Of a stretch of DNA of 64,000 nt, positions 4,525-56,641 are shown one piece after another. The notes under the pieces are model-generated. The model made no database searches, was not told the origin of the DNA, and worked only from the letters and a program-made list of their open reading frames with translations. Source of the stretch: Trichinella spiralis (lineage: Eukaryota). Made by a program: the position numbers and the translations under genes. Numbering within the stretch: position 1 is the stretch's first letter; every line of letters starts with the position of its first letter. The stretch spans positions 11,212,007 through 11,276,006 of the forward strand of contig NW_003526943.1 in assembly GCF_000181795.1 (NCBI RefSeq), written 5' to 3'.

Positions 4525-5942
4525 TCAAATTTTGGTCGACGTTGCCATGGTGAGGCGACTCAAGGCTACGGCTGTTAAAATTAACAATAAAGCCTGGAAA
4601 AATTATCATAATTTATCATTGAAATATTCGTGTGAATAATTATTATGAGATCTTACTTTGAACACGTTCGGACCTGTGATGAAAAACCACTTCTCAATGC
4701 CTATACCGACCGGCAGGTCTCGAAAAGCTTGTTCGTAAAATGTTACCACAGAAAAGCACTATAAATTCAATTGCATAATTTAAAATAAAAAACAACATAA
4801 TTCTACAGAATCCTACGTCTTGTTCCCAGTGCAAATTGATACTGCTTATTTTCTGCATGTGGTAAAAGATGTAGCTTGCCTGAAAAGAGAGAAGACAAAA
4901 TTGGACAAACAGAACAATTCACGACAACTGTCTATACCTGACGACAAATAAAAGTTGATAATAATGTAAAAGTGAGCAGCTGCAAGCCGAGAAAACAGGC
5001 GCACAGACATGTGAATAGTTTGTCGTATGCGCTGAAATTGGTGACAAAATTACTGCCAATCAAAGCGTTCGTATGCAAAATTGCAAGCGCCGTTTGGCAT
5101 GTCAGACTGATGCCGATCAACGGTGCGAAAGTGCTGTTCAAGCTGACGTTGGCTAATTTCAAACGACCATGCACTGACAAGTAGTGCTTCACCAACGCCA
5201 ATTGCCAGCAGTTTCTGTCCGATCTAAGATCGACGTTGAGAGCGTGAAATTCCGTCGCCAGCATCGTATATTGTCCAATCAGTAACGTGTTGGCCAATGT
5301 CCACAGTACGGCCGAATGGATGATCGCCAGCAACAGTGGCACTGGTTGGAATGGGCCACTGTTGGAATAGTAGAAGTATATGGCAAAATATGCGATCCAG
5401 AGCAGAGCTTGCAAAGCGGCGGTGCAGAGCAGGGTCGTCTGCACCGCTTTGAGACGTTTGCGTTGACGTGCCAGGCCGATTCCAAGCGTGGCCGCTTGGA
5501 GCCGTGAGGCAAATTTCCTCAGCACCGGCCCGCTTCTCAGTTGGACTGTGGCCAAAAATAGCGCAGAACTGGCAAATTGGATTACAACAATTAGCTGGGT
5601 GGTGAGGTGCAAGAAAAATGGATCCGGGCCACGTTGCCACCAAAATTTCACCAACGATATTGTCATCGTGCACAACAACACTGCCCAGTAGAACAGCGCA
5701 ACTGTTGCGTGCAGTCGACGCAGCCAACGGAAACGGCTCGACTGTATGTTGTAGCTTAGCCAAAAGCCGCTCAATTTCCAAACTGTTCTCAACGATTTCG
5801 TGAGTTCATCGATGAGACGTCTCGCGTTCAGAGTCTCCCCATCGTGCTGCTGTGCTCGACGTCTGCCGCTTGTTGTTGTGGTCGCCTGTTGCCTTCTTGA
5901 ACGGTCATTGTACGTCAGCCATTCTGACTTTTCTATCTGCAT
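4525..5942 (-). CDS. Gustatory-receptor-superfamily (7TM chemoreceptor, GUR/GRL-like) membrane protein; 4 exons
   Basis: A long hydrophobic first exon (5942-4938) is followed by three short exons joined by phase-0 introns (4879-4817; about 4758-4657, ...DLPVGIGIEKWFFITGPNVFK; about 4593-4525, ALLLILTAVALSRL...). This is the typical GR-family C-terminal exon layout. The family call rests on topology and exon structure only. Confidence 0.65.
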
Positions 5943-6964
5943 CGACACTTTTAATCTAAATTCAAACAATTTACAATTTGTTCCTCTTTTTCTTTAATTT
6001 TTTACGATATACTGTAATTCTTTTTTTTACTTTTTTTCATACAAATACAATTTTGAAATACGATTGTTTTTGAAAATAGAAAATAAAAATAATTATTATT
6101 TACACATGTAGTACCTAAATAATTGTTTTTAAAATTTTAAATTCTCATTCAGTTCCATTCGTATCTTTCGACAATGGTCAATATCTGTTTGTTTATTCAG
6201 GTTCACTAATCACTAATCAGTAAAGTTGATTTCAATGAAACATTTTTACAGGGGAAAGAAAAATATTAATTTTTATGAAAAAAATAAAAGTATGAATTAA
6301 TTAACAACAAGTTTATTTAATTTTACAAAAAACAAAGAAAAACGACTACTTTAAATGCATAATCTTAATAATTATGTTTACAATTTTATAATTTGATTTT
6401 TCCTCCTATCTTAATACAATGTAAATATTGAGATTATGCAAAGATTCAGAAACATTTTGAAAAATATATATTTCAGACTTACTTTTCGCTTGTTCCAGGT
6501 GTTCAGTGTTGATGTAAATTTTTACGACAACAGCTACAACAAAAATGGTGCAATGGAATTCGAATATCAGAACAGCTAATTCAATTATCTTCTTTCATCG
6601 GTTTATGTATTATTCAAAAGGGTAAGTTTATTTTGATTAATTTTCCATTTGGCAATTAAATTTATTAAAGTGCTAAGAATTAATCAACCAGTAAAGATGT
6701 TCAATTCAATTCAACACTTTAGCAATTTACTTGAGTTGTTTTTTTCAAAAGTGAAGAAAAACAACAATACATTTTACAAATTGAATACAATACAAACAAT
6801 TATTACAAATTATTATTGATTATCAATTAAACAATCTTACCTGTTGTTGTTGTCGTTGTTATTGTTGTTTTGTTTTAAATTTCGGTAACTGTTCATATTG
6901 GCATATTAATTATGTACCAGAAAAGGTTAAAATTTTATTATTATTTCAAAATGGTTGGTTGAAA

Positions 6965-9656: not shown

Positions 9657-12084
<2,428 letters not shown>

Positions 12085-13024
12085 TTTCATTACATCGTAA
12101 GACTTTGTTTGAATCTTAAAATTAAAGAAATATTTTTGAATAGTTATTAATTTTAATGCATTACAATGGGAACAGTATTATCCATCAGGTATTATACTGG
12201 TACAACCTTAAAAATTGTTTCTTAAGATAAAATTCAAAATGTTTAAAGTGAACGTATCTGAATAAACAGTATAAGTTGAAATGATTATTTATTTATGCAG
12301 TAAATAATGGCAATTACTGATATTTATGAATGTTATGTGAAGTAATTATTCAATGCAAAAGATGAATAAATGAATTTATTTATTTTGCCAATTATAATAA
12401 TTGCAAAGTTTATATTTTTGTTTTTTAGTTTTATGTGAAAATATTAGAATATATTTGATAAGATCATAAGAATCTTTGATGAATAAGCAAATTATTGCAT
12501 TGTTTTTGGTTGCATGCGTTTCAGTGTGGTATCGATGATGTGATGTGGTTCTTTTTACATGGGTCGATACTATTTGTGAAAGTTGTTTACATGTTTAGTG
12601 GGCATTTGAATAAATAAAAAATTCTATGCCGGTTGTATGTTCAGCGAATTAGCCAGTTGAATTCTCGTTTCTACATTTTATCAAAGCATAAAAATAAAAA
12701 TAAAATGCATATGTTAATTCAACATGTCGAAACATGTAGAAAGAAATGTTGTTTTGGTAATAATTGGAATATATATGTATTCCATTTAATAAGCTCAATT
12801 CCCACGCCCAACAGCCAAACAGGCCAACGACGAAACGTCCGCAAGTTCCTTCTTGAACTATTTCCAAATAACCACATGGTCACATGTTGACTTAATCCTC
12901 ACTCTGCTGTTTGAATAAATATTTGCCCTGGCCAGTAGCACTGGCATTTGGAGAACCGTCTGAAACGTTAGCTGAGAAAACGATACAGGGAGAAACTTTA
13001 CCGTATATTTTAGTTTCGTTTCAA

Positions 13025-16000
13025 ATGGTCAACGTGAACTGTTCTCTGATTGTTTTATTTTTCACTTACGGTGCAGTTTTTGGTGGCAATATTGCCTTGG
13101 AACAATGTGCCTCTGATCAACTACCGGCAGAAAAAACTGCAGCTGCAATCATTACATTAATACTGGATGTTCGACGAACTTTACACAACCATGGTGCGTT
13201 TTGTGCATGCTAACTTTTATACATTTATAAGTTAAAAATGAAAAAGCGACACATATGCATATCTAGAAAAGCTAAGCGAAAAGCGTTGAAAGATCCCATT
13301 TCAAATCATTTGCAGCAACATGCATTTGCAAAAATGCAGAGGCAGTTGATATTTTTATGCAAACAACAAATGCACTATTGGAAAATAAGCTCAAATTTAA
13401 AAAATTCACTTTCATCCGCATGTTATCTTAATTATGCAAATATGTTTGAACTAAAATATTAGAATTGGCAAAAACGTTTTAAATACAATGACAATTGTTT
13501 TACAGTAATTCCATTCATGCAAATTTATGTAATATTTATGCTTTAATTTATGAATAACGCATGCAAGAAAACCGGTGCATAGATTTAAAAGCACATTTGA
13601 TTAGCTTTGATACTTTTTATTATATTTTCACGATCGGTTTTTTTGTTGTTTTATTTATTAATTCTTTGAATGGGTGTGGCATTGCACAAATATAAATAAA
13701 ATGAGAAAACAACCATTGTTTATTTATAATAAATAGTTATTTTCAATAATAATGCTGTTGATTATTGTTTATTATGGAAACTGATTTTAAACGTCAAATC
13801 TTTTTTTCATTATTACAATGGGAATGGACTTTATGCAGTCAGGTTTAAGAAAACTAGAAAGTTTGAACGGTGTCACTTCCTCATGCACTGATCCTCTTAT
13901 TTCTGTAATTGGTAGATAACTGAGGCAATTTGGGTTTATGGTGCTAAAGTCACTATTTACCATAGCTGGTCAAACAACGCTTTTCCCACCAAAGGGTAAG
14001 TTCCATCCAGTCTGACATCAGTAAAATTGTCTTCATGTATGAAGAACAACTTTTCACTCGAAAAAGATAAAATTCGGAAAAAAAATTAAATAATTGATTT
14101 TCTGTCAGAATCTTTATTTATTTTTCATTTTTGAAATAAATAAAAAAAATTTTTTTTTAAATATTCTAGAAAATATTTCAAAAACTTCAGATGATATAAA
14201 ACAAAATTTTCAGATGGACCATCATGCGGTACAGTTTCTGAAGAAGGACTTCAAATTGAAGAAATTGCTCAATGGGTAATAAAGATTTTAAATCAAGCCT
14301 CAGGAACCGTGTTTGGGTTGCCAGTTTCAGACTCATTTATTCCTGGAATTGAACTAGGTATTAAGATATATGTTTTTTAAAACAATCATACAGTTTAATG
14401 ATTTAATTTTAATTTTCGCAGGATTGCAAGTGTTAGATACTTGCGGAATTGCTAGTCGAGCAATTCGACTTTCAGCGGAAGCATTTTCAGATTTGCAATC
14501 TCCAAAGCACAAATGTACTTTCAATGATACACGAATAAGTTTAGGTAAGTTGACAGAATTTTTAAAGACATTTTTACATATTTAATAAACACAACGCTGT
14601 CATGAAGAAGATAATATTTATTTTATTACCCTGAAAAGTAATTTGCAACAGCAATACTTATTTAATAATTACCAATTAATGGGCAATTATTGAAAAGAAA
14701 AATTAACTTTTTTTCAGGCGTGATTGTCAAAGCAGATGACTCTACGATGCATCACTTGGTTGATTTTTTTCATCAGTACAAAAAATCTGTTATTGGACTT
14801 GGTTCCAGATCAAATATGCTGAAGCAAAAGCAAGTATTTACCGTTCAACCTGATATAGATACAATAGTCCAGGTATTTAATATTTTATTAAAGAACAAAC
14901 AAAATTATCATAATTTATACACAATTTTCTAGGCTATACTGAAAACAGCGGAAGCAATGGAATGGAAACATTTGTGGCTAATTTATGAAAATACTGATTA
15001 TGGCAATGAAGGGAAAACGCTGTTGACGAATATATCCGCTCAGCAACAATCAATATGCATTTTGGGAACGGAGCAATTTTCTCATGGAACGAATTCAAAT
15101 GCAAATATTAAATTAATATTAGAGAAAATATTATCCAAAAAAGAAGATTCATATTTAATAATTTTGTTCATGTCCAGACCAGTTGCTCTTCAATTTTTGC
15201 AGGTTAATTTTTTGCGAACATTTTTCAATTAAAATTTAATGCTTTGTGTTTAGGCAGCTTTTGAGGAAGAGCTGATCGCCGACAGCCGCCGCATGAAATG
15301 GATAATGTCAGATGGATTTGACGGATCTTTTGTCGATATTTTTGACCTTAGCAAAGGTGTGATTGCAATTTCTGACGAAAATCCATACAGGGTTCCAGAA
15401 TTTTTGTCACACTGGACTGAAACTGATCCAAAGGAACATTCTAAATTCTGGTATAAAGAATTTTATCAACATCGTCATAAATGTCGATTAGAAGGTAATT
15501 CAAATATTAAAAAATATTTTTTTATTAATAAAATTATATACAACAATAATAAATTAAAATGGCTTTATGCAATATCTTTTAAGCTTTTTATTCTGCTTTT
15601 TTTAATTACGGAAAACTTACAGAGACGAAATAATTTGATTTTAAATTATTTTGTGTCAAATCAATTAATGAAATTGAATATTTTGATATTTAATATTTTA
15701 AATTTTAACGATATTATACATTTGATTAGAATATATTTCATTAATACTTTTCCTGTAAATAGAAGAGAATATAACAACAACTTTGTTATATTAAAATTTG
15801 TTTCCAAAAAGCAAATATGTCAATACATGTGAAACTAAGTGTATATTTTTTTGAAATTTGTAATATTATTTCAGATGACACAAATCCGGCGTTTTATCGA
15901 TTTGGAATTTGCAAGAATAAAAAATCAGCAATAAACCACACTGATTCTGAATTATTTTTAACTCCTTCAGCGGTTCACGTCGTTGATGCAATTTTCACCT

Positions 16001-19000
16001 ATGCTATAGCACTGAAAGGCGCTTGGATGGCAAAATGCCGAGGACGACCAGGTTTATGCCCACAGTTAGTTCAAATGGATAATCAAGTAACTATAGCATT
16101 TTTTCTTGTTTAATTATAAATAAAAAAGAAATTTCATAATTTTAATTAATTGAATGCAATATTTATGCAGGATTTTATCCGTTTTATTAAACACGTTGAA
16201 TTTTCTTATCAAAAAGAAAATCGTTCTCCACCAAGTTTCATTTCCCGTCAAGTTAGTCATCGAAAACCGAAAAGCCAAGTTGCTGTATTTCAAGTTCAAA
16301 GTGACGAACAAGCAAACCTGCTACTCAAACAAGTATGTCATTTGAAATTAAACAAAAATTATAAAGATTTAAAAGACCAACTGACCAATTATAATCTGTT
16401 ATTTGAAAAATCTGTTTTTCACAATTCTAAATTATTTAAAAACAGTTGTTTGAAGTTTATAAATAATGAATATGTGTCATTTAAATTAATTAATAATTTT
16501 ATGATCAAAAAGTTGATTAATTGTGGGAATATTTATAAGTATAAATTTGTTACCTAGTAACAAGCCCCGGTAGCGCAGTAGGTAGCGCGTGAGTCTCATA
16601 ATCTCAAGGTCGAGGGTTCGATCCCCTCCCGAGGCATAACTTTTTCCACTTTTAACGCACTGTTTTATTTTGATTTAATTCAGTTTAAATCAACTGTTCT
16701 TTATTAATTAAAATAATTAATAATAATTTCATTTCAAAATGTGTAATTCCAATTACTACAATTTTATATTACTGTTCATAGATATTCAGATATGATTGTT
16801 TTCACAACAATCGTCTTCTTCAATTATCTGCTCCTTTATATTATGATAATTTTGGGAAAATAGACTTGGAAAAAAAGCACTCTATGACAACAAATGATAA
16901 ATCTCGTCGATGTATGACGTTTCAGAAGCGGAAAGCTTGCCATATTATTCCTGGTGACTTATATATGATTGCAATAATTGGTATACAAGAAAAAGGATCA
17001 TATTTTGATTACTGTGGGCAAGTGAATGTAGAGGACAGCTTAGCAGATATTGTATTTTTCAACCATGCGCTTTCTTCACTGAATAAAAAATTACTGCCTG
17101 ATCTTAAAATTGGCAGTATAGTAGTGGACAGTTGTTCCAATGCAATTTTTGCTGCTCAACAAATTGGCACTTGTCTTACTAATATGGAAGAAATTATTTT
17201 TTCCAAAACAGAAAATGATTCATCTATTTCCAATCAGCCATTGTTTATTGGAGCTTTAATTCAAGCTGATGGTTTAGAATCAGCTGAAATTTCTCATCTT
17301 TTATCATTGACTTTACCCTCCCTACCAATTGTAATGTATGGGAAGAATGTTGTTCCTGGAATAGCACCGAACATTATCAATTTTGGGACCAATTTTCAAA
17401 ATATTGCAGATGCAGTTTTCAATGTGATCCAACAGTTCCCTTGTCATTACAAGCAATTTATTGTTGCAAGAAAATACGCACCTTCTGTCAGCGTGATTGA
17501 AAGCATGGCGATGAACAATTCAATTGGAAATTTCAAAACTTTGCTTACAAATTTTGGTAGCAATTTTGACGGTATTTCAGCGATGAATTGGATTGAAAGA
17601 AATGCAAATTTGTCCGTTGTTGTGCTGTTTTTAGAAGAAGCGGAACTTTTGGAATTTTTGAAAACTGCCAATCAATCTGCAACTTCGAGCAATCATATTT
17701 ATTTGATCGTTTTGGATCGTAATTGGACATTCGAAAAATTACGCAACTTTTCACACCTTGAAGGCAACATGATCATTTTTCTTCACACTGACAATGATGC
17801 TAATTATTCCTTACAAGATCATATTATTAATGAAGCAGTCGATGGGATATTCAATTCAAAAAATATCTGGATTCGAGAACATATTGAAAATAATCTAAAC
17901 TGTGGGAAACAAAATGAGAAAAATGAACACAATGCTATTGTTGCATCTTGCAAAAATGAGACGTTATTGTATTTAAAAAAATTGGCTCTTCGGCATTCGA
18001 TCAAGACGAATCGTTTACTTGCATCTGTAGACATGCTTGTAGCAACTTTGCATCATGTGGTGAAAAATAACTGCTTTGATGGTTTTGCCACCGGCAGCAA
18101 ATGTTCACAATTTTTGCAATCTTTCCTGAATCTGAAAGAGAACAAAATGTTAAATTATGTTACGAAGCATTATGAAAAAATTAGTGAAAATGATATGTTT
18201 GTCTTGCCTACAAAAATTGGGATATATTTTCAAAGTCAGCTGAACAATGAAAAATTTCAACAGGTAAGATGAAAATATTTTCATAAATGTATAAATAAAT
18301 CTACACATTTAAATAAAGGTGATCAGATATTTAAAATAAATTAATAAAAGAGTGAGAAATTCTTAACAGTATACTTATTTAATTCATTCCCAATAAATGA
18401 ACAGAAAATTGTTTTCAATTTAATATTAAAAGAATTTTTTTCAATTAATACATTATAAATCGTGTGCAGTTTTGAAGAGAAAGGAAATTATGCTATTTTT
18501 GTTGTAAATTAATGTAAATATTAAAAAGTGAAATAATTGTCGAATGTTTTAATTAACAGTACAACTAGTTTAATTTTTAAAGTGATCTTGATTTTGTTTT
18601 AGATTGGCACATTTTATTTTAATTCAAAAAAGTTTGAAATTATGGACTTTTCATTATTTAAAAATCTGTCTAATCAAGCATCAAGCTACTGTTTGAATGG
18701 AAGTTCAGAAAATCAGTACATCGAACAAAGTACAGTACGAAAGAGCGAGGAATTATTGACAACTGTACTTCCCGTTACTGATATATCAGACTATTTATTA
18801 CAATCTGAAAATATCAAAGAAATGCATGTTTTTTTTGAAAGCACTGTTATGAATATACCCCCACTGTCGACTGGTGAAAGTGTTCTGATTGGAGTGCTAC
18901 TGCCTTTGACGGGAAGCGCTAATTGTGGACATGTGGATTACAATAAGGTGAAGAATGAGGATGCTGTTTACGCATTAGAAGCATTGCTTTGGGCTAGAAA

Positions 19001-22000
19001 AAAAATTCACATACTCTACAACATGGATATACAATTTATTATTTTCAACACTTGTTCTTCAGTTTCAAAGACCAATATATTGTTGAACAGTTTTCTTATT
19101 AATCCACGGCAATTTTTTGGAGAAAAATTTGGACTAAATTACACAGAAGATTTGGTGGTAGGATTTATCAATGGTTATTCTGCTGGTCCTGCAAGTGTAG
19201 CTTCTGAAATTCTATCCGAAGCATCCATAATCAATGCGGACATCAGGAACAATGTGCAAAATCAAAATTCAATGACGCTGCATTTTTCAGGCAATTTAAA
19301 CTCCTACATCAGTGCGGCTCTTCAATTTCTGGAACAATTTCAAATTAATTTTATCAGCATATTGTATTCCAATGATGAAATAGCAGTTACATTTACAGAT
19401 AAATTTCGCTTGAAAGCAAATAATTTCAACGTTTGTATGGCTTACATTAGTCAAGTTGACTCTACTCAATCACTGAATACACATATAGACAATTTGGAAA
19501 GTGTTAGAAATGCAGGCGCTACTGTTGTACTTGTTGTGCTGGAATTTCAAAAACTGATTGCCTTCGAACGAGCATTAGAAAAGCAAAGTCATGGTTTGAC
19601 ATTTTTCATAATTTCATTTCAAAATGAAATTAATGCATGGAATTCCAATCACTTTCCAGTGCTGTTGAATAGTTCAATTTTATTAAAAAGGCAAGCTGAT
19701 CTTCCAAAAGACTTTATGAATCATTTATTGCAGCTCAGATATGATAACAATGATGGAAATTATTTGTGGTCTGATTTTGTGAAAAACAAATTCAACTGTA
19801 CTACAGAATGCAATGATCGACTGCCTGATGTAAGTGATTACGCCATGTTGAATGCAGATCAAGTACTTTCTGCTGTAAATGCGTTGTCTGCATTAGTAGC
19901 GGGTGTCCGCAAACTTGGTTCAACAATATGTAAAAATCAGACTATAATATGCAAAGAGTTGAAAGAACTTCCTAATTTTGGAAGTGAATTACTCCATATA
20001 CTTCAAAAAGAAACTTTCCCTGCAGTAGATGATATTAGCCGAAAAATTCGAATAGATGAAACAAGACAAGTGAATGAAAAATTAATTATCAGTACAACAT
20101 TAATTCTCGGTTCAAATGAAACACCTTTGTTACAACCGGTAACTTTTTTGAATTTTGTGATTGTATACATGTTTTATATGCATTAATTATTTGCTCTTCT
20201 ATTTTTCAGATAGCAGTATATGAAAATGAAAAGCTTACCCTCAATAGAATTGGAACTGAAGTAAAAAATCAACTAGTTTTTACTTCACAATGCTTAGATA
20301 TACATCAATGCAAGCAGTGTTGGAAATCAATGGATAAACTGTTAAATTCTTACCTGAGAAAATTTAGTAAGTTTTTTTTTCAAAAATTTTGAAACTCCAT
20401 TCAAAAAAATTACAGAAATTTATTTTTTAATTTTTAATCGCAGAATATGGTTAACTATTTTTTTTGGTATTTTAACATTTCAAAACAAATAATTTTTCAA
20501 GTTGCGATTATACTTATATCACTATATAGGCCCTGCATTGGAAGTTCACACAGAAAGTTCTGATCATGTTGAAGAGATATTAAGTATTTCTGAAGAAGAA
20601 GCTGAAAATGTTGAGAAAAAGACAAATGAACAAATAGAAGAGTCAAAATCTTTTGTATGCATAAAATCAACGAGCAACATTTATCTAATGGCAGTAATTC
20701 CAATTCACAACCGTGAGCAGAAGAAGTTGACATGCGGTGCTTTTTCATCAAATCAGTACCAACGATGGAAAGCGATTCAGTGGAGTTTGGAACGGCTGAA
20801 TTATTATTTGTTGGCACAAAATGGCATCAATTTGGGAATAATTGCACTAGATTCATGCTCAGATCAAGCGCATACAATAAAACAACTATCCTATTTGATA
20901 AACGGCGATATGCAATTGAATAGTTGTATTCAAGGCAATTTTTCTGAACAGGTGATTGCAGCAATTTTAGTCCCGTACAATCAAGAGGATGCATCCCATG
21001 AAGCTACCGTTGATTTGTTGACCAGTAATGGAATTTTAACTTTCAACTGGGATTCAAGTTTCGCATACAGTGCAAACAGTATGCTATTCAGTACTGGTTT
21101 GATAGAACAGTCTATGGTGAATGGCCTGGTGAAATTTTTAGCTAAAACAAAATGGCACTATGTTGCGTACATTTATTCAAATAATAAAAACAGCTTGAGA
21201 AGAAGACAAATTTTCAGCAGCCTTGCAAATGATAATGGGATTTGTTCTGAATACATATTATATCCAAGTCATAATAAACAGTCGTGTGGTGAAATGACGG
21301 AATTATTTGATCAGTTGAAGAAGATTAAACTGAATGGCCTGCGCGGTGTAGTTCTTGGCTTAAGCATGAATAAACTGCGTTGTTTTTTGGACCGGATGGA
21401 ACGTTTGGTGGCATCTGGACAATTTTCGACAAATCAATTTACCTTCATTACCGCTCTTGACGCTAATTACAAGCAAGCATTTTTTCGTTACGAATCAGTT
21501 GCTGCTGGATTTGTAGTTGTTCATCCAACTGCTGTAGAACTGGACGAATTCCATCAGTACTGGAAAGCTTTAAAAGTGAGCAATAGATAATAATAATAAT
21601 AATAATAAAACGATCGTATAATTTTAGCATCTCAATGTTTCCAATGATATTTGGTGGAAAGAATTGTTGGCAACTGATGATTGGCCTGAACGACAAGATG
21701 AAAAACTACTCTATTTGGCCAATGCAGCATACTCTGCAGGACATGCGGTCTACGAAACTAAACAACAACTTTGTGGTTCAGGAATGATTGCATCAAAAAA
21801 TTGCAATAATTTAATCATGCATCATTCTTTTCGAAATGCTTTTCGAGAAAACGTAGCTACATCAAAGTTTGTTGACGAATCTGGACAGATGGTTACATTT
21901 GGTAAAGATGGCTTAGCTACTCAACGGGTATCAATCAGCTTGCTAGTTATGGATTTGGATATTGTTCAGTGGATAGAAGTAAGCAACATTTGGCACTGTT

Positions 22001-25000
22001 ATATATTTTAATTTTATCGTAATTCTCTAGATTGTATTCACAATATTTTTTATTAATCGTCATAAAAGTGGGAAAACTTTGGCCATATTTTAAAATTATT
22101 TAAACATATCAGAATGATATAGAATATGAATACAATGTGCTAAAAAATATTAACAACATGGTAAACAACTTTTACAGATTGGTCGAATAGAAAATGATGT
22201 GTTCGATACTAAGCAACGTGGCAATTCACCATTCCAAAACTATGAGCCGATGCTTTATTTGCAAAAGTTGACTTCAAAATGCACAAACGCAACACTGTGT
22301 CCACAGTGTTCAAGATGTCCATCTCCAGTACAATTGTCGACTTGTCCTAGTGTTCATTGTAAGAATGAATTTGGGAAAAGTACAACGCCTGCACAACTGG
22401 ATGTCACGACAGAAAAGATTCACTTGCCTGCTCTAAATTTGCATTATTCTGAATCAAAGTTACACTGGATTGTTCCTTCACCAAATGGAATATATGCAAT
22501 TGCGTTGGTTCCTGTCCATTTTCCAAGCGAAGAGCTATTTTCATGTGGTCCATTGGATATTTTTGGAGGATTTCGACAAGCTTTAGCATTCATGCATTCA
22601 GTGGAAAAATTGAACAAGCAACTGCCAAAGCATGACCAAATCGGTTTGATAATTATAGATACGTGCAACGCCAAAAGTGATCTTGCATTCAGTTGGATTT
22701 ACCACTTGTCGACTAACAATCGATCCGTGCAAATATTAGCTGTTTTGGATGCTGGGTATTCGAATTCAAATGAACTGGCAGAATTGATGAAAAATTTTCA
22801 AATACCTCTATTCACAATTGATCCAAAATTAGAAATGTCAAAAAATGAATGGAATTTGCAATTCAAATTTGATCTCAATTGGTACGCTGAAATTGCTTGT
22901 TCAGTGATTCATCGCTTGAAATTTATTACCCCACTGGTGGTGCTGTTCGAGCAGTCAAACAAGCTACATTCTAGCATTATGGAAAAATTCATTTACTGTT
23001 TAGAAAGTAACAACTTCAATAATGTAATTACAAAAATACCTGTGAATAATTATCGTGAGCTTAATGCCATTTTGAATGGACTTTCCAATCGTCCAACAGC
23101 TGTTTTTGTGCTTTTCATGTCGTCGACATTCATTTCTGCATTTAGGCGTGCAGTTGTTCAACAACCATACAACATTGGTCAGACAATTGTTTTAGGATAT
23201 GGTTTGGAACGGATTTTCACAACTGCTAGTCCAATCGAACAAGTTGAACAACAACATTCAAATGTGGTAACATGGTTGAGCATTGAATTGTTGATCGAAA
23301 ATGATGCGGATACGTCTGAATTTTTACTTTCGAAACAACTGAACAATTATCATCCTATTCCACAGTATTGGTTTGAAGAATATTGGCAGCAGATGTTCAC
23401 ATGCAAATTGTCAAACAGTGCAATAGTGGGAAATTTTCATTTCCACAAAAACTGTACTGAAAATGAGCGAATCAATTCGACTGCTTTGTCGAAGAATCTA
23501 GAAAGCGATATGTCTGTTTGGTTTCTTATGAACGTTGCGGTTGATGGATACAAAAAGTATGTGGACAATGATTGTGCACAAGTTTCAACAGCAGCACAAC
23601 CCACCAGGCTGGTGAATTGTTTGAAAAATGGAAATCGAAGTAATTTATTGAAATATTTAAAATCTTCACGTTGGAATCAAATTGTTGTTGGAAATGAATT
23701 CAGCAATCACAAAACACTGGAAAATTGTAAAATAGTTTTGAAAAAAATTTACATGGACAAAAATCAACTACTTGCAGAATCTGTAGCTTTGTGGAAGCAG
23801 ACTTTCACTTTGAGCATCAATGGAAAACCAACTTCATCATCAGCATCTTTTTCTTCTTCTTCTTCTAAAGATATTATATGCAAGACATCTTCTGTAGAAG
23901 AAGATTGTTGGAAAAGATTCGATTTTGCTGTTTCCAGTTTAGAAGAAACCAACAGAATGAATGAAATATGGATTGTAATTGCAATTTCTCTGGCTGGACT
24001 CGGCATGACAGTTTGTATTATAACGTCAATTGTGCTCGTTGTTACAGATCATGCAGCCAATGACATGTTCAATCATTTGACTCTTTTTGGTATGTTTTTT
24101 TTCCTTTTTTAAATTTCAATTTAAACTCATCAATTCTATTCAGGCCTGTTCAATCTGTACGCTGTAACGCTAGCCTTTACTTGGCAATTATCCGATATCG
24201 TGTGTACAATTCGATTATATGCGACCGGATTTGCATGGACATTAGTTTTTGCACCACTTTCAGTGAAAGTACGTGAAAGAGTTTTTTATTATAAACATTT
24301 TGAGACAGGAAAAAAATACACAGATATGTATTTATATGAATTTTCAGGTTGTTCAGATGCGTTTGTTTCCGGAAAATGGAAAAAAGCAAGCGTATTGTTG
24401 GAAAAAGCGAAATTGCATCATGGTCATTTTAGCAGTTGTATTTGTTCATGCAATCGGTGTTCTACAGTGGATGATTGTGAGCAAAAGTACCAAAATACCG
24501 GTCTTGTTCAAACAAGCTAAATGTGCACCGGTGGGAAGTTTGGCCACGTTTGAACTGTCCCTCACCTTTTCCATGGCTTACCCGATTTTAATCATCTTGG
24601 CCACAATGATCACCGCAATGACCACCACCACTACAAATATGTCGAAATATAATAAAAGCAGCTGCGGTATTGCCGTCACATGTATGTTGACAATAATCAT
24701 TTGGCTATTTTGGAATATCACATCAACAATGGAAATATTTCAACTTAGTGATCCTGTAATTGCAATGGGTAAAAAACATGCATGCATATTGAATTGTATT
24801 CAAATGATGATGATAATTTCTCTTTTTTTTTATTTAGGAATTTTGATCAATGCTAGCGTGCTGTTTGTCGGTTTGCGTCTTCGTGATAACAAAAATACTT
24901 CGACACAGTCGAGACGTAGTTACAATGTAAATATGATCAGAAATGAGGCATCGCTCCAGGTACTTCAAAAGTCCATACTGTATTTTACACCGGATGCTTA

Positions 25001-25201
25001 ATAAAAATGTTTATTCTATCTTTGTAGCCTGACCCGGCGCTGGTACCGTATGGTGTAAATTTTTCAAAATCAAAACTTGGCACATTTGATTCAGATCAAT
25101 CTTATTCAACTTATTCAACCGTGCCTAAGACGAAAAGATACTTCAACGTGATGGCTTACGACGGCAGTTCAGAATTTTCCGCTACAACAATGGTCAACTG
25201 A
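13025..25201 (+). CDS. Giant class C (mGluR-like) GPCR with five tandem Venus-flytrap (ANF-receptor-type) domains; 18 exons, about 2,900 aa
   Basis: Signal peptide MVNVNCSLIVLFFTYGAVFG. Five copies of the VFT pattern (CG...A...N...G..i.D/N-T/S-C): LQVLDTC about 14440, IVVDSCS about 17128, IIFNTCS about 19047, IALDSCS about 20850, IIIDTCN about 22658. The 7TM at about 23965-24880 has a class C TM3 (CTIRLYATGFAWTLVFAPLSVK). All GT-AG junctions were checked as phase-compatible, e.g. 16332/16782, 18263/18603, 20138/20210, 21575/21628, 21978/22178. Confidence 0.85.
13825..14050 (-). mobile_element. Possible degenerate Helitron/PIF1-helicase fragment in GPCR intron 1
   Basis: The minus strand reads LPFGGKSVV*...YLPITEIRGSVHEEVTPFKLSSFL, resembling the PFGGK...LPV..RGS...S.LW segment of Helitron helicases. 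It contains a stop and I found no termini. Confidence 0.35.
16564..16636 (+). tRNA. tRNA-Met (elongator, anticodon CAT), intronic
   Basis: Cloverleaf: GCCCCGG TA GCGC-AGTAGGTA-GCGC G TGAGT-CTCATAA-TCTCA AGGTC GAGGG-TTCGATC-CCCTC CCGAGGC A. It has U31:U39 as in elongator Met and a T5 Pol III terminator at 16641-16645. Confidence 0.96.
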
Positions 25202-25313: not shown

Positions 25314-27566
25314 TCAATCTTTTTTCTTCTTATCACGATGAACAATCTGAAAAATAAAATTCAAATTCAAAAATATTTAATTTTTAATGGTATTTTCTGA
25401 TTTTCTTTCTATTTAAATAAACATTTCATATGTTCATATTTCAATGCAGCAAATTCTCAGGCATATATGCATAGGCAATGCATTAAAATAGTTCAAATTC
25501 AAAATATATACCTGAAAAGACTTGGATAATGCGCACAAACAACGATTAGATTGACTATAATAGCCGAGTTGGTATTTTCCAGCTTTAACCAAAAATTTGC
25601 CAAGAAACAACACATTCTGATAAACGCCTTTTTCACTCTTCCGATTTACCCATTTTGATAATACATACTTCCAGGCCACTACATCCAAATCAGAAGAGAA
25701 ACCAACCTACAAGTATACCAATAATGACTTATTAAATAATAATGATATTATGAATAAACAAAACAAAACAGTTTACCTCATACAAACCTATCCAATCTAA
25801 AATGCCTGCTTTGTAATTCTGGGGTTCGAAAAATGTGCAAATACTGTTCTCGTTCACATACCAGGATTTGTTGAATTCACTACCATCTGCATTGCAAAAG
25901 TAAATTTCTGGATTTGACACACTCAACGGACACTGAAGAGTAACAAACGAATTATGTAATTAATTAAATCAAAATATTATTATTAAAAAATCAGATGACA
26001 ATACATGATATGTAAAAACTGTTTCTAAATAAATTTTAAAAGATACTTGAATTTTAAAATCGGCCAAAACTGCTTTGTGATCACTGCAAAAAACGTGCTC
26101 AACAGAGGTATACTTTTTAATTTTACAATTCGGAACATGGCATGAACTTTCACAACAATGATCAGCGGTTCTCCACAAAATTCGATCACAGTAAGAAGGC
26201 ATGCGGCTAAAAATAAAAATTTTGTTGTCTTGCTAATACCAAAAACAAAAAGATTTACATCAAAAACTGTTTTACCTAAAATTTCGCTCATTTTTTTCTC
26301 CAGGTTTAAATTTATACGTCGGAGCAAATTCAATTTGCGCTTCATTAAACTCTTTCAGTGCAGCATTTTCACTCTTACACTCGTTCAGCTTAAAACATTT
26401 CCTTTCAAAACTTATAAATCATACTTTTAGTACACAAAAATCAGTACTTGATCATATTTCAATAATTCTGAATAGTTTTTATTATCCAAATGCCGTTTCA
26501 CTTCCTCTTTCGTTAATCCGTCCACACGAAAATTCAAATCGCCAAACCAAAATACAAAACTGAAACCATTCCAATATTTTAAATGCATTAACATGTTAAC
26601 ATAAGTTTAAAAAAATTTCCGTCCATTACTCTTCAGATGTTAAACTACAGTTTGGTTTAAAATTGCATTTTCTCATCACTTCTTCGCATTCCTTAAAAAA
26701 CTATTAATAAACAAATATATAAAATGAATTTCAACAATTCTTACAATTTCACGCCGTGCTAACTTGTTTGCATGCGGAGTGCAATGCGAATTAAGAAAAA
26801 CAGTATGAGTTCCATTGGCGAAATTTAAATGAATACACAGTGTTCCCTTGTGCCCCTAAAATTATCCTATTAAAAATTTTTAAATCTATTTATTTTTCTA
26901 AATTATACCGATAAACCATAAAAACCACTTCGAATGTATTTCACCTGCACTGATTTTACCAAACTCAGCAAGTGTCGTTTGAGGAAAATAACCGATGAAA
27001 GCCCCATCATAAAAACGCCAGATGGCTAAAGAAACATTGAAATAAAAATGGAATTAAAATTTTTTCAACATTCATACATGATTGCACGTCAGTTGAGCAA
27101 AACCATAACTATTCAGGAAATCTTTAAATTGATTGCCCCAAGGATTGCCGACCCAGAACATGTTATAAAGATATTTCAACGATAAAAAATTCCCTTCTTG
27201 AAATCTGAAAATTCAAATTGTATAAGCTAAACATATTTAAACAGTAGCATAACAAATGATTCATTGATAAGCTACATTATCCATGATTATTAAGACTAAC
27301 AATTTACATTTTAATCGTAGAACATTACGGATACTGTTTTATTAGCTGGTAGTATAAATTTACCCTATCACAATGATATCGAGCTTTTCAACTTCTCCAG
27401 GACTCATGTGAAATTCTGCAGGAGATAATATACCAGGTCGGAAATTAACTTTATTTACATTCCATGTCATAATTCGCATACTAAACAGCAGACTGTCACA
27501 GAAACTATATATTTAAAAAATTACTTACTTTAACGTTGAAAATTCATCTTTTTGAAACGACGACAT
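25314..27566 (-). CDS. INPP5K: Inositol polyphosphate 5-phosphatase K/J-like (SKIP) with C-terminal SKICH domain; about 11 exons
   Basis: Translation includes IMTWNV, IVIGFQE, GHKGTLCI, FLNSH, VFWFGDLNFRV, FAPTYKF, RMPSYCDRILW and CSDHKAV, then SKICH-like DWIGLYE|VGF...YQLGYYS. Confidence 0.88.
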
Positions 27567-30494: not shown

Positions 30495-33923
<3,429 letters not shown>

Positions 33924-34401: not shown

Positions 34402-34792
34402 ATTTAGACTGTCACAGTATTTTTCAAATTGCTTATTGTATGCTAAATTTATGCATTGTTAAATGTATCTGGCGAGTTAGTGTGAGGAATTGAAAAAGAC
34501 GTTGCTGAATTTATATGATTATTACAATGTGAAACGAAAATTGTCCTGAATATAATTTTGTTTTATATCAAATATTATTGAATAAAATGATCGATTCAAT
34601 CAATACAATAAAATTATTCAAGTTAACAAATCAGTTTGAAAATGTTTTTCAAAATAAAGTTATACTTGAAAATCAACATATCTGTATTATACTGTAATAT
34701 TGTTGAAACTTTTCCCATTATTGAAGTAGTGTTGGTCTGGTGTTTTTCCGTTGGCATTTTTGATTCTTAAATTAAATGTAAAGCGCAACAAA

Positions 34793-36214
34793 ATGGTCAT
34801 AGGCAAAGATGAGATACTTTCGAGATGCGGTTTAATTACGAAGGATATGGTGATGAATTTGACTACTGATGTGTCATTGAATTCGAAAAACGCTCAGTGG
34901 AATCGTTTAATTTATGTAAAAAGCGGAGCTGACGCGTTGATAGATACTCAGAAGCCTTTTCAGAGGAAATTCATTCGCAACAGAATGGATTTCAAAGAAG
35001 AATTTGAGCAATGGTGCAAGAAAAACGGCGTAAAAACGTTTAGCGTCAAGCCGGAGGCGGTCGACAATTGTGGCATCGGCATGGTCGCCACGGAAGATAT
35101 TCCACAAGGGAAGTTGCTGGTGTTGGTCCCGAGGAAGGTAATGCTGACCACAGAATCTTGTCTCCAGTCTTGCCCTGCGATGAGAGATCTGCTCAAGGGG
35201 GATCCAATTTTGAGCAGCATGAACAACGTCTCTTTAACAATGGCCGTCCTTTATGAACTGTTTTTGGGTAAAAAGTCATGCTGGTATGAATATTTGCGCT
35301 TTTTGCCCACTGAATATTCGGTGCCGTTGTATTTCGACGAAGATGCGTTCAGCGTATTGAAATTTTCCGCTTTTTTCGACCAAGTGGTCAACGTCTACAC
35401 GTCCATTGTTCGTCAGTACAGTTACTTTTATCAGTTGTTGATCAACAGAAATTCACCGTTCCGCGGGACTCCGTTCAAAGAGACCAATTTTACTTTTGAA
35501 AATTTTCGCTGGGCCGCCAGCACCGTGATGACGCGCATCAACTTCATACCGTTGTCGGAGATGAGCGTGGCTTCGGCTATGAACGAGGCCGCTTTGATTC
35601 CAATGTGGGATTTGTTCAACCACGAAATTCAGACGCTGTGCAGCGATTACGACACCGACACTGACTATGGGCGTGTTTTTTCCGTCAAATCCTGGTCCGC
35701 CGGCGACCAAGTGTTCATCCACTACGGTAACCGTGGAAATTACGAACTGCTCATTGGGGGCGGGTTCGTGGTCGACAACAACCCGTTCGATTATTTTCCG
35801 TTGAAGCTGAGCCTCGGCCAGGCCAGCGAAAACTACTCACTGCGCTTGGAAGTGCTGCAACAACGCGATTTGGCCGAGACCAAGGTCCACCGCATATGCT
35901 GGGCTGAGGACGAGATGTTCCAGCCGTCGATTTTGCAATTCGCCATCGTCCACTCGGCCGACGTGGCGGCGTTGGAAGAGATTAAGAATATGCCCACCGG
36001 TACGGCGCCGATCTCGGACCAGTTGCGGTTCAAAGCGAAATCCTTTCTCAAAAATCGTCTAAGTCTGCTGCTCAACACTTACGCCAAATTGCCTGAAGAA
36101 AATGACGAAAACCCCCATCAGAAACTCTGTCTCGTCTGTTTGGATGGTGAAAAGCAGCTTCTTCAGCACGCAGTTGACGTTTTGGAAAGTTGTACATTTC
36201 CTACGGAGATATAA
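34793..36214 (+). CDS. SETD3: SETD3-like SET-domain methyltransferase (actin-histidine N-methyltransferase family), intronless
   Basis: A single ORF containing GIGMVATEDI, WAASTVMTRIN, ALIPMWDLFNH and DQVFIHYGNRGNYELLIGGGF, followed by a Rubisco-LSMT-type substrate-binding region (FLKNRLSLLLNTY). Confidence 0.85.
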   Translation: MVIGKDEILSRCGLITKDMVMNLTTDVSLNSKNAQWNRLIYVKSGADALIDTQKPFQRKFIRNRMDFKEEFEQWCKKNGVKTFSVKPEAVDNCGIGMVATEDIPQGKLLVLVPRKVMLTTESCLQSCPAMRDLLKGDPILSSMNNVSLTMAVLYELFLGKKSCWYEYLRFLPTEYSVPLYFDEDAFSVLKFSAFFDQVVNVYTSIVRQYSYFYQLLINRNSPFRGTPFKETNFTFENFRWAASTVMTRINFIPLSEMSVASAMNEAALIPMWDLFNHEIQTLCSDYDTDTDYGRVFSVKSWSAGDQVFIHYGNRGNYELLIGGGFVVDNNPFDYFPLKLSLGQASENYSLRLEVLQQRDLAETKVHRICWAEDEMFQPSILQFAIVHSADVAALEEIKNMPTGTAPISDQLRFKAKSFLKNRLSLLLNTYAKLPEENDENPHQKLCLVCLDGEKQLLQHAVDVLESCTFPTEI

Positions 36215-37335: not shown

Positions 37336-39263
37336 TTACAAGTGCATGACATCTAAACAAGTGTTTTCATTCATTTTTACATATCCAGGCAAGCAATTGC
37401 AGTGAAAACTGCCTGCAGTATTAATGCATCGGCTGCCACTGCTGCATGGATATGATTTTCCATCATCCGGTTGACATTCATTAATATCAAAGCAGTGATT
37501 GGTCCCATCGCCAAAGTATCCCTTTTTGCAAACACACTTGTGCCCGTGCTCTTCGTTAATACAATCTGCATCCGGATGGCAAGGTGCTGCGGCACAAAAA
37601 TCTGCATTTTTGCATATTGCACAACAATGACCCTCTGGTGTAATTTGATCTTCAATTGAACAGCTCAATTTTGGACAAGAATTTGTAGTATATGTGCATG
37701 ACATGTCACCATTTTCACAACGACATTGAACGCATTGTTTCGGTGAAAATGCATCTCCATGTTTGTAATTTGCACCCATATAATGACAGTCTTGCCCACA
37801 TTCTGGGCAACACTGTCCAGGACGTTTTATCAAATGATCACATTTTAATTTTGGACATCCCAACGCGTGACAAAACACTTTTCCCAAATGGCACGTGCAC
37901 TCTGTGCAACTTTGTTGATCAAGCCAACGATATCCATCGTCCACTTCAGTGTCGTTTATCTAAAATGAAAAAATCTAATCAAAAAGAAATAGAATAATAT
38001 ATTTAATTATAATTCCGAATATAAATTTATCCTCTCATCACAACTTACAACACATCCACGTTGTCGAAGAAGGACACTTTTCAAACGTTCGTCCATGTCC
38101 TTCATGTTTTTTCGCAATCGTTTAAATTCTTCTTCCAAGTAATTGATTTTGAAACGCAAATATTCCCAACAGTTTGGACACTGGCCGTCGATTTTCACTT
38201 CGCTCGGTTCTGGCAAATTTACCAACTTCAGTGTGGCACCCTTTTCCGGCTTCAAATCCAAAGCAATTGCTTCTAAAATTTCCACCCTACTTTGCAACTT
38301 TTTGCAAATATTTTCCGCTTGCAACAGCGCCTCATGCGGCAATATCGGATCTTGCATGGGAGTTTCAGTGATGCGCTTTTCGAACGCGACCGACTTCCAC
38401 TGATCATAATCTTGTGTACGTATGCTGCACAATTTGCCGGCAAGCGACTCGTTCGTGATGACGAACCGTCTGATTTCGCCGGCGAATTTCGAACTTCCCC
38501 TGCCCCGGTGACCGACGTGGGCGCTGGTCGTTTTGTTGCTTTGCAAAATTCGAAAATCAATTTCTGGATAATCCCCAACCACTGCTTCAATGCAGTCGAT
38601 CATCAGGCGCAAATCTTCATTCACCAATTCAAATATGATCGTGTGCATATTTTCGTCGTCAAATTCATATTTCACATGCAAATTTGCTATTCTATATTGA
38701 CGGCGCCAGTAGACGGTAAGTTCACCTGATTTAAATTTATTCACAATCAACAAATAATAAATGGTGAAATGAAATTTTGTAATTTTAATTTTATAAAAAA
38801 AACAATGAATTTTTGAAATTAAAAGTTAAATAAATAAATATATATTGTTTTTTAATTTGTAGTAAAATAGAAAATTAAAAGAAAAGAAAAGATCCAAAAA
38901 GTTCAATAATATCTTTAATAAGACTTGATGAATAAAATAATGCAAAAAAATTCAAGAAAAAGGTTTACCTTTCAATCCTGAGCTGTATAATTCGAAAACT
39001 TTCACGTTGCCAGTGCTGACGTAAAATAAAGTTCCACGGGTGTGTTCAATTTGTACAAATTGTAATAGAATGGAAAATTTTTTCGTCATCAACAATGAAG
39101 CCACTTCCGCTGTTTCAGATTTTGTCAAAGTGACCGGCTGGGATATGTCCTTTATTTCAAGTGTTTCACAGTGGATTATTATTATTAATATTAATATTAA
39201 GAGTGAAAACAAATGAAGAGGTAAAATGGAAAAATTCATTTTTGAAATTTTTATTTCACTCAT
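37336..39263 (-). CDS. NELL-like secreted protein (signal peptide, LamG/TSPN, coiled coil, 2 VWC, 2 EGF); 3 exons, about 530 aa
   Basis: Exons at about 39263-38969, 38726-38049 and 37959-37336. The LamG-like LRLMIDC region is followed by CPNC plus heptad repeats, two VWC repeats (CTECTC...CCPEC; CVQCRC...CCAIC), an EGF and a Ca-binding EGF (DINEC...CINTAGSFHCNC). Confidence 0.75.
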
Positions 39264-56146: not shown

Positions 56147-56641
56147 TCATTTGTCATCTTGATCCGATAAATCAGGTGAAGAAGAAACTTGTTCACTATC
56201 TTCATCAGTCTCCTCTTCATCATTTTCTTCATCGTCAGCTGAAGAATCAAAATCTGAATCGGACGGAGGTAGATCCAGTTCGTAAACGTCGTTTTTGGAT
56301 TTCCGATCTTTGAAAGGAAGAGGAAACACTTCTGGCCACAAACCGTTTTGTACTATATGTTCAATGTTATCGTTGAATAAGATGCGGAAGATCTCTGCTT
56401 TTACTTTTTTTCCTTCTTCTATTGGCTCACACAGGACGTAGCTTCCACGCTTAACCCAAATATGCTTTCTATATTTTGTTGGCATGCTAACCAAAAATGT
56501 TTCTCCAGACGCAGTTTCCACTTCAACCAAATTACTTCCACGATTTGAAATAACACGTGCGATAAACATTGGAGGTTCGGGAAGAACCATATCATAAAAA
56601 ATTTCATGAGTAACATATTTACGTTTTGTAGCTACCGACAT
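56147..56641 (-). CDS. EIF1AD: Probable RNA-binding protein EIF1AD (eIF1A-like OB fold), single coding exon
   Basis: Translation includes MSVATKRKYV, RGSNLVEVETASGETFLVSMPTKYRKHIWVKRGSYV, PIEEGKKVKAEI, GLWPEVF and an acidic tail (LPPSDSD). Confidence 0.92.
   Translation of the reverse strand: MSVATKRKYVTHEIFYDMVLPEPPMFIARVISNRGSNLVEVETASGETFLVSMPTKYRKHIWVKRGSYVLCEPIEEGKKVKAEIFRILFNDNIEHIVQNGLWPEVFPLPFKDRKSKNDVYELDLPPSDSDFDSSADDEENDEEETDEDSEQVSSSPDLSDQDDK

What the first reader, a model, noticed from the sequence alone, without database searches (positions are those of the whole stretch)
13025..25201. One class C GPCR carrying five tandem Venus-flytrap domains
Seen in sequence: what the ORF track shows as separate ORFs (16866, 18642, 20502, 22199, 24273) splices in frame, via phase-matched GT-AG introns, from a single signal-peptide exon to a single 7TM. 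The product is about 2,900 aa with five divergent VFT modules at about 13130-16332, 16940-18263, 18880-20138, 20680-21978 and 22490-23790. Each module has the D/N-S/T-C motif and a W..E...C-like segment (FWYKEFYQHRHKC, IWIREHIENNLNC, LWSDFVKNKFNC, IWWKELL, YWFEEYWQQMFTC). I saw no signal peptide or TM between modules. Established: mGluR, CaSR, T1R and GABA-B have one VFT per chain. Inference: this may be a multi-ligand or avidity sensor, or a long adhesion-like receptor. I cannot tell whether this architecture is already described in other invertebrates.
Basis: partly seen in the sequence, partly recalled or inferred. Interest (0 to 1): 0.9.

Follow-up and report, generated by a model that had tools for sequence, protein, structure and literature searches.

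The report
Five-flytrap class C receptor in Trichinella
This Trichinella gene encodes one 2,933-residue surface receptor of the glutamate/taste-receptor class that carries five ligand-trap (Venus flytrap) domains in a row instead of the usual one, a layout shared by unnamed relatives in molluscs, a ribbon worm and (with four) arthropods; its traps lack most amino-acid-binding residues, so it likely senses something other than glutamate.

Summary
Confirmed. The window is Trichinella spiralis DNA. An 18-exon gene (13025-25201) encodes 2,933 aa: a hydrophobic N-terminus, five mGluR-type Venus-flytrap (VFT) modules and one class C 7TM, with no cysteine-rich domain. RNA contigs splice exons 2-18 in one piece. 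The exon-1 junction was not seen; a read-through splice from the upstream HPD gene was. Other Trichinella species carry the same 2,925-2,930 aa protein, auto-named 'mGluR8'. It is not unique: five-VFT receptors occur in Romanomermis, bivalves, snails and a nemertean, four-VFT ones across arthropods, and their 7TMs form one clade apart from mGluRs. This scan found the layout before, in octopus DNA. New here: only the first and last modules are orthologous by position. AU tests reject positional orthology of modules 3 and 4 between nematodes/arthropods and spiralians, so the count of five may have arisen twice. Trichinella modules keep 2, 0, 0, 0, 0 of five amino-acid-backbone residues, against 4-5 in 13 of 40 spiralian modules. 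It is therefore likely an orphan, non-glutamate receptor on a long VFT stalk. Ten literature searches found no description. New variant of a known kind; ligand unknown.

The parts
13025..13193 (+). Exon 1: start codon, probable signal peptide (aa 1-22) and start of VFT module 1
   Evidence: Hydrophobic N-terminus; 91% identical in T. pseudospiralis; same N-terminus in 11 of 13 other Trichinella receptor models compared; its splice to exon 2 not seen in RNA
13118..16901 (+). VFT module 1 (aa 32-532; exons 1-9), membrane-distal, most conserved module
   Evidence: Pfam ANF_receptor; 203 bits with arthropod-only HMM; one clade with arthropod and spiralian first modules, 100/100
16947..18695 (+). 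VFT module 2 (aa 548-1017), most divergent, no arthropod counterpart
   Evidence: phmmer to mGlu3 E 1.8e-10; 82 bits; unplaced in module tree
18858..20296 (+). VFT module 3 (aa 1072-1527)
   Evidence: Pfam ANF_receptor E 4.8e-11; groups with arthropod modules 2 and 3 and shares their short Cys loop
20652..22285 (+). VFT module 4 (aa 1592-2052)
   Evidence: Pfam ANF_receptor E 9.9e-15; groups with arthropod modules 2 and 3
22463..23881 (+). VFT module 5 (aa 2112-2584), membrane-proximal, joined to TM1 by about 26 aa, no cysteine-rich domain
   Evidence: AlphaFold2 model (mean pLDDT 62) matches mGlu3 VFT, E 1.1e-21; one clade with the last module of arthropods and spiralians, 98/98; no NCD3G hit
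23957..24887 (+). Class C seven-transmembrane domain (aa 2610-2852; exons 14-17)
   Evidence: 7tm_3 57.8 bits against cut-off 33.5 on the 97%-identical P0008; 95.5% identical to T. pseudospiralis; 7TM tree
24888..25201 (+). Cytoplasmic tail (81 aa; exons 17-18) and stop codon
   Evidence: 96% identical to T. pseudospiralis; joint 24959/25028 in RNA
16333..22177 (+). Four phase-0 introns (16333-16781, 18264-18602, 20139-20209, 21979-22177) at one homologous position in modules 1-4
   Evidence: All map to alignment column 698; all spliced in RNA contigs
12096..14214 (+). Read-through splice from the last exon of the upstream HPD gene (after its stop at 12079-12081) into receptor exon 2, skipping exon 1
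   Evidence: GT..AG joint in runs X1 and X3 and the same loose end in X2, all one study; absent in X7; no in-frame start or signal peptide

Best explanation
One gene encodes a single 2,933-aa class C GPCR with five tandem Venus-flytrap modules on one 7TM, and it likely works as an orphan, non-glutamate receptor in which most modules would form a long stalk while the conserved outermost module would bind the ligand. Shown: the gene structure, the five folds, the 7TM, the missing cysteine-rich domain, short Cys-containing linkers, and loss of the amino-acid-binding residues. Inferred: the short linkers (9-26 aa in spiralians; 16-65 aa here) would stack the modules head to tail into a rod of roughly 30 nm (5 x about 6 nm, domain size recalled). 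The receptor would dimerise as other class C receptors do (established for the class, untested here). Ligand binding or mechanical engagement at module 1 would be relayed down the stack to module 5, which sits about 26 aa from TM1 and would re-orient the 7TM pair directly, as the CRD-less GABA-B receptor does (recalled). The ancestor was likely a multi-site amino-acid sensor, since spiralian modules often keep the pocket.
For: One spliced contig over exons 2-18 in two runs, and inter-module joints in a second study. The same single-gene model in T. britovi (40-member cluster, which also holds HPD proteins) and T. pseudospiralis (9 members). Introns fall inside the folds, so cutting there would leave incomplete domains. 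Pocket residues (mGlu1 numbering S165, T188, D208, Y236, D318): 2, 0, 0, 0, 0 of 5 here; at most 2 in all 5 Romanomermis and all 20 arthropod modules; 4-5 in 13 of 40 spiralian modules; 5 in 9 of 10 single-VFT references (residue set from PMC6307864). Disulfide cysteines of the fold are kept. Module 1 is the best conserved module within Trichinella (93.8% against 89.5-92.0%) and the clearest ortholog across phyla, and it alone keeps Y236 and D318. The 7TM and tail are the best conserved parts (95.5%, 96.3%), and the TM3 and ECL2 cysteines and the TM3 lysine are kept.
Against: No ligand, localisation or signalling data exist. Pocket mapping rests on alignments at 15-20% identity and can slip by a residue; module 1 may keep D208 one column off. 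A changed pocket may bind another small molecule, as proposed for class IV mGluRs. The conservation margin of module 1 is small. The Trichinella 7TM has a very long branch and lacks the TM6 glutamate kept by its relatives and by mGluRs, so G-protein coupling is not assured. The exon-1 junction was not seen in RNA, while an out-of-frame read-through from HPD was.
Confidence: 0.5

Rival explanations
1. Multi-site small-molecule sensor: several of the five pockets are active but re-tuned to non-amino-acid ligands (host metabolites, amines, ions), and the receptor integrates them as a coincidence detector.
For: All five folds and their disulfides are kept. All modules are 89-94% identical between T. 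spiralis and T. pseudospiralis. The nemertean ortholog keeps 4-5 of 5 backbone residues in all five modules, with different side-chain residues in each.
Against: Pocket positions in Trichinella modules 2-5 share nothing with Romanomermis at the same positions. How closure of a distal VFT would be relayed through four others is unexplained.
Confidence: 0.27
2. Silent partner or adhesion protein: the chain does not couple to G proteins itself. It serves as a structural or trafficking subunit of a heterodimer, or as a cell-surface tether with a 7TM anchor.
For: Degenerate pockets; a 7TM far from mGluRs with loss of the TM6 glutamate; 33 N-glycosylation sequons.
Against: The 7TM and cytoplasmic tail are the most conserved parts of the protein. 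No partner was identified.
Confidence: 0.2
3. Artefact: several neighbouring genes or an operon of VFT proteins merged into one model.
For: Contigs are not single molecules, and the same contig also joins the HPD gene upstream and the convergent gene downstream. One T. pseudospiralis annotation starts at module 3. Raw reads cover only 2 of the 4 repeat-position introns, one read each.
Against: In-frame GT-AG joints at all four positions; introns inside the folds; no internal signal peptide or stop; the same architecture in nine other 50%-identity clusters from three phyla plus unnamed entries.
Confidence: 0.03

Closest known systems
Metabotropic glutamate receptors mGlu1-8 and invertebrate class IV (mXR/mangetout type)
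   Same: VFT sequence and fold (best PDB matches are mGlu3, 7 and 8), conserved disulfide pattern, 7tm_3 domain.
   Different: Five VFTs instead of one; no NCD3G cysteine-rich domain, only a 1-6 Cys linker; amino-acid pocket lost; the 7TM lies outside the clade of CRD-bearing single-VFT receptors.
GABA-B receptor subunits
   Same: VFT joined to the 7TM by a short stalk with no cysteine-rich domain (GABA-B layout recalled; about 26 aa here).
   Different: No GABA-B chain among the 42 and 47 PDB sequences matched by modules 2 and 5 at E up to 10; one VFT per chain in GABA-B; coiled-coil tail not tested.
Unnamed protostome multi-VFT class C receptors (e.g. XP_074641006.1 Tubulanus, XP_069135753.1 Argopecten, XP_022257203.1 Limulus, XP_064082330.1 Macrobrachium, A0A915HWR7 Romanomermis)
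   Same: Same 7TM clade (SH-aLRT 99), orthologous first and last modules, short linkers with mostly three cysteines, no CRD.
   Different: Arthropods have four modules. Spiralian middle modules form their own clade and often keep the amino-acid pocket. Trichinella is the most divergent member and has longer linkers.
Bordetella BvgS sensor kinase (tandem VFT domains; PMC4352136, seen as search listing and start of abstract)
   Same: Tandem VFT domains outside the membrane of a dimeric sensor: a functional analogy for relaying signals through stacked flytraps.
   Different: Bacterial histidine kinase, not a GPCR; homology not tested.
Venus kinase receptors of invertebrates (PMC2680970, search listing)
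   Same: Invertebrate receptors that use a class C-like VFT.
   Different: One VFT, one transmembrane helix and a tyrosine kinase domain.

Membership tests
Class C GPCR | 7tm_3 transmembrane domain | tested here: met
   57.8 and 61.5 bits against cut-off 33.5 on P0008 and P0009, 97% and 91% identical to the model
Class C GPCR | Extracellular Venus-flytrap (ANF_receptor) domain | tested here: met
   Five copies
Class C GPCR | N-terminal signal peptide on the expressed mRNA | tested here: inconclusive
   Hydrophobic, conserved exon 1, but its junction was not seen in six runs
Class C GPCR | Obligate dimer that couples to G proteins | not testable with these tools
   Needs expression and signalling assays
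mGluR classes I-IV | One VFT per chain | tested here: not met
   Five
mGluR classes I-IV | Nine-cysteine domain (NCD3G) between VFT and 7TM | tested here: not met
   No PF07562 hit, while two single-VFT controls have it
mGluR classes I-IV | Amino-acid backbone residues S165, T188, D208, Y236, D318 | tested here: not met
   2, 0, 0, 0, 0 of 5
mGluR classes I-IV | 7TM groups with mGluRs | tested here: not met
   Outside the 20-row CRD-bearing clade (support 99) in a quick tree of 60 rows
GABA-B receptors | VFT closer to GABA-B than to mGluR | tested here: not met
   Only mGluR chains matched modules 2 and 5
GABA-B receptors | C-terminal coiled coil for heterodimer assembly | not tested
   No coiled-coil prediction was run
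Unnamed protostome multi-VFT class C orthogroup | Shared 7TM clade | tested here: met
   30-row clade, SH-aLRT 99, holding 11 of 11 five-VFT and 12 of 14 four-VFT rows; Trichinella branch very long
Unnamed protostome multi-VFT class C orthogroup | First and last modules orthologous by position | tested here: met
   100/100 and 98/98; position-specific HMM margins of 127 and 39 bits
Unnamed protostome multi-VFT class C orthogroup | Middle modules orthologous by position with spiralian five-VFT receptors | tested here: not met
   AU tests reject for module 4 (p 1.7e-55) and module 3 (p 5.3e-7)

The most novel reading that the evidence does not exclude
An unnamed, protostome-wide lineage of class C GPCRs breaks the one-flytrap rule. 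It began with fixed first and last modules around a middle module that was multiplied separately in ecdysozoans and spiralians, so five flytraps arose twice. Spiralians kept a row of differently tuned amino-acid pockets (a multi-ligand sensor in one chain), while nematodes and arthropods turned the stack into a ~30 nm stalk that reaches for a non-amino-acid or macromolecular ligand, in Trichinella possibly a host cue.
Probability: 0.35. Interest if true: 0.82.

Novelty: new variant of a known kind. Interest (0 to 1): 0.62.

Why it matters
The activation model for class C GPCRs rests on one flytrap per subunit, whose closure re-orients the dimer. A lineage with four or five flytraps per chain, kept across nematodes, arthropods, molluscs and nemerteans, shows the architecture can be extended. 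It raises a directly testable question: can a signal pass through stacked flytraps, or do the extra ones serve as spacers? The family offers a natural contrast, with intact pockets in a nemertean and lost ones in Trichinella and arthropods. Database names ('mGluR8', 'mGluR3', 'pheromone and odorant receptor') are misleading and hide it. No close relative appeared among solved structures (best PDB matches are mGluRs at under 20% structural-alignment identity); if vertebrates lack the family it would be a candidate parasite- and pest-selective receptor, but absence from vertebrates was not tested directly.

Tried and rejected
No whole genome is held for this window, so copy number in T. spiralis is unknown. 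Self-BLAST of the model found no internal repeat; the modules are only 13-20% identical, so recent duplication is rejected. A single-sequence AlphaFold2 model of exon 14 was uninformative (pLDDT 36); the 14-row alignment fixed this. Complex prediction of two copies of module 1 gave no verdict (score 0.01, alignment not used); it says nothing for or against dimerisation. The run search listed no holder on record as RNA; RNA status of X1-X4 rests on their spliced joints. My first idea, that five modules are ancestral by position and arthropods simply lost module 2, was rejected by the module trees and AU tests. An HPD-receptor fusion protein was rejected for this window: the observed splice lies after the HPD stop and gives no in-frame start; the 3,280-aa T. 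patagoniensis entry is likely a merged model. An operon with HPD is undecided: 943 bases from stop to start, against medians of 380 for operons and 2,667 for monocistronic genes (PMC7668243 passages); its supplements gave no hit for HPD or glutamate receptor (file 12 not searched). Drosophila CG32447 and C. elegans F35H10.10 were recalled as possible reduced orthologs; the papers gave no domain information and the sequences were not compared. The ESM Atlas called module 5 ANF_receptor-like but named no family. The look-up of look-alike windows in this scan returned nothing.
Full report
Source. The best database match to exon 10 is a T. spiralis protein (99% identity), so the window is Trichinella spiralis or nearly so. 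No whole genome is held.

Gene model. From the sequence I built 18 exons: 13025-13193, 14214-14357, 14422-14544, 14718-14872, 14933-15202, 15254-15494, 15875-16086, 16171-16332, 16782-18263, 18603-20138, 20210-20366, 20530-21575, 21628-21978, 22178-24089, 24144-24268, 24348-24768, 24838-24959, 25028-25201. All 17 introns are GT-AG and in phase, giving 2,933 aa with no internal stop. The model is 97.4% identical to an annotated 2,930-aa T. britovi protein and 91.3% to a 2,925-aa T. pseudospiralis protein, with only 1-5 residue gaps. Both are auto-named 'Metabotropic glutamate receptor 8'. The 2,535-aa T. spiralis entry P0001 has six internal gaps and a truncated 7TM relative to the model.

RNA. 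One 11,284-nt contig in run X1 carries exons 2-18; a 10,228-nt contig in X2 shows the same joints. Fourteen introns are listed as joints; introns 12 and 15 follow from contig coordinates (351 and 126 nt between listed pieces). Run X4, from a second study and another organism label, has contigs across three of the four repeat-position introns (not 16332/16782). Raw reads of X18 are thin (72 laid) and cover two of the four, one read each. Contigs are not single molecules, so long reads remain the final test. Against the model: the exon 1-2 junction was seen in none of six runs. Instead X1 and X3 (joint) and X2 (loose end), all one study, splice the last exon of the upstream HPD gene at 12096, 15 bases after its stop, to exon 2. 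That form has no in-frame start or signal peptide. Exon 1 is thinly covered (contig depth 2-5), is 91% conserved in T. pseudospiralis and begins 11 of the 13 other Trichinella receptor models compared. I infer that it is the true start and that its short branch was lost in assembly; this is not shown.

Five VFTs. Modules lie at aa 32-532, 548-1017, 1072-1527, 1592-2052 and 2112-2584. An HMM from 15 arthropod proteins, with no Trichinella input, scores them 203, 82, 155, 151 and 102 bits, against 3.5 at best in 100 shuffles. Pfam finds ANF_receptor in exons of modules 1, 3 and 4, and four stretches plus 7tm_3 in the full-length orthologs, with no NCD3G. The two Pfam-weak modules were checked separately: module 2 matches mGlu3 over 328 residues (E 1.8e-10), and module 5, folded with a 14-row alignment (mean pLDDT 62), matches mGlu3 VFT structures (E 1.1e-21). 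The modules are 13-20% identical to each other. Four phase-0 introns sit at the same alignment column in modules 1-4, just before the last beta-strand.

Relatives. A search with a prawn protein returned 28 proteins, named ones from crustaceans, chelicerates and a mayfly; most full-length ones have four VFTs and one 7TM. A profile search of 1.84 billion representatives listed the best 150. Ten of these have five VFTs plus this 7TM and eleven have four. Of the nine non-Trichinella five-VFT entries, eight were looked up: a nemertean (Tubulanus), two bivalves, three gastropods, the nematode Romanomermis and one unnamed; Pfam counts five ANF stretches in five of six tested and four in Romanomermis. 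In a quick 7TM tree of 60 rows (four rows with a 7TM hit left out as fused or partial), a 30-row clade (SH-aLRT 99) holds all 11 five-VFT rows and 12 of 14 four-VFT rows, apart from the 20 CRD-bearing single-VFT receptors. The Trichinella branch is very long. Two earlier notes of this scan report the same layout in octopus DNA; I did not examine those sequences.

History of the repeats. In a careful mixture-model tree of 46 modules (13 proteins chosen from the 25 aligned), all first modules form a clade (100/100) and all last modules another (98/98). The middle ones split by lineage: spiralian modules 2-4 (96/94) against nematode modules 3-4 with arthropod modules 2-3 (96/98); nematode module 2 is unplaced (the 80-row LG tree agrees on these groups). 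AU tests reject grouping by position for the penultimate module (lnL 101 lower, p 1.7e-55) and for the one before it (96 lower, p 5.3e-7). A shortened Cys loop (3-5 residues) is shared by 10 of 10 arthropod middle modules and both nematode module 3s, against 8-16 residues in 23 of 24 spiralian middle modules. It is not clean: Romanomermis module 4 has 13, Tubulanus module 3 has 5, and one arthropod first module has 4. Nematode branches are long and the tests share the model's bias; early gene conversion within each lineage would look the same. So the ancestor had at least three modules, and five may have been reached twice.

Pockets and mechanism. I mapped the seven mGlu1 ligand residues listed in PMC6307864 (passages; its legend prints 168 where I used T188 from recall) through a reference aligned to mGlu7. 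Trichinella modules keep 2, 0, 0, 0, 0 of the five backbone residues. Romanomermis and all 20 arthropod modules keep at most 2; 13 of 40 spiralian modules keep 4-5, including all five in Tubulanus; 9 of 10 single-VFT references keep 5. The fold's cysteines are kept, and linkers mostly carry three cysteines, resembling the start of a cysteine-rich domain (resemblance recalled); Trichinella linkers are longer, with 1-6. The 7TM and tail are the most conserved parts within the genus; the TM3 and ECL2 cysteines and the TM3 lysine are kept, the TM6 glutamate is not (helix labels recalled). I read this as an orphan receptor that does not bind glutamate, whose stack is mostly a stalk, with module 1 as the likeliest binding end and module 5 driving the 7TM directly (0.5). 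Rivals are several re-tuned pockets (0.27), a silent or adhesive subunit (0.2) and a merged-gene artefact (0.03).

Literature. Ten full-text searches listed no paper describing class C GPCRs with tandem VFTs. I read passages of PMC6307864, PMC3971589, PMC1192796, bioRxiv 2020.04.23.037242, PMC7668243, PMC6341585, PMC2246102, PMC4302439 and PMC9138782; none of those passages mentions it. The architecture list in the supplement of PMC3971589 shows only ANF//7tm_3 and ANF//NCD3G//7tm_3 (file 1 not searched, and repeats may have been collapsed). The library lacks most subscription journals, and the architecture is visible in public annotations, so a prior mention is possible.

Verdict. It is a class C GPCR, not an mGluR, and belongs to an unnamed protostome lineage: a new variant of a known kind, interest 0.62.

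Noticed in passing
window 9728-12081 (+), start not fixed: 4-hydroxyphenylpyruvate dioxygenase gene directly upstream; its spliced RNA reads through into receptor exon 2 in one study, and a T. patagoniensis annotation fuses the two genes into 3,280 aa by a different junction. Operon status undecided.
   Followed up: partly
window 16564-16636 (+): tRNA-Met (CAT) gene inside intron 8 of the receptor, on the same strand.
   Followed up: no
window 25347-27100 (-): Convergent gene with a spliced 3' end (joint 25346/25512) close behind the receptor's stop; its motifs look like an inositol polyphosphate 5-phosphatase (recalled; no Pfam hit on two fragments).
   Followed up: partly
window 15875-16790, Trichinella models P0039, P0044, P0051, P0056, P0058: Five annotated forms lack 54-64 aa at the end of module 1 (around exon 8); not seen in the RNA laid here.
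   Followed up: no
window about 24376: A second contig covers this spot in X1 and X2 (summed depth 98.5 against 69.7, and 64.1 against 44.2), perhaps an alternative acceptor in exon 16.
   Followed up: no
P0120, P0126, P0130, P0137, P0138, P0161 and similar: Many 1,050-1,670 aa proteins with two VFTs and no 7tm_3 hit; in those scored, the first module resembles module 1 of this family. One looked up is from a bivalve.
   Followed up: partly
P0083, P0088, P0093, P0107, P0110, P0121, P0135, P0152, P0180: Two- to four-VFT 7TM proteins outside the main clade in the 7TM tree, source organisms not looked up: tandem VFTs may have arisen more than once.
   Followed up: no
P0092, P0099, P0100, P0101: Long entries with many VFT pieces and CRD motifs; the one looked up is a fish 'CASR protein, partial'. 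Likely merged models of tandem gene arrays, not counted as family members.
   Followed up: partly
window 4935-5993 (-): 353-aa single ORF at 49% GC in an AT-rich window, with hydrophobic stretches and no Pfam hit.
   Followed up: no
window 30863-58985: Ordinary neighbours by Pfam: methylmalonyl-CoA mutase (30863-33125), SET-domain protein (34730-36211), VWC/EGF and ephrin-receptor-like exons (37339-42327, minus), dDENN (50535-50972), eIF-1A (56150-56758, minus).
   Followed up: no
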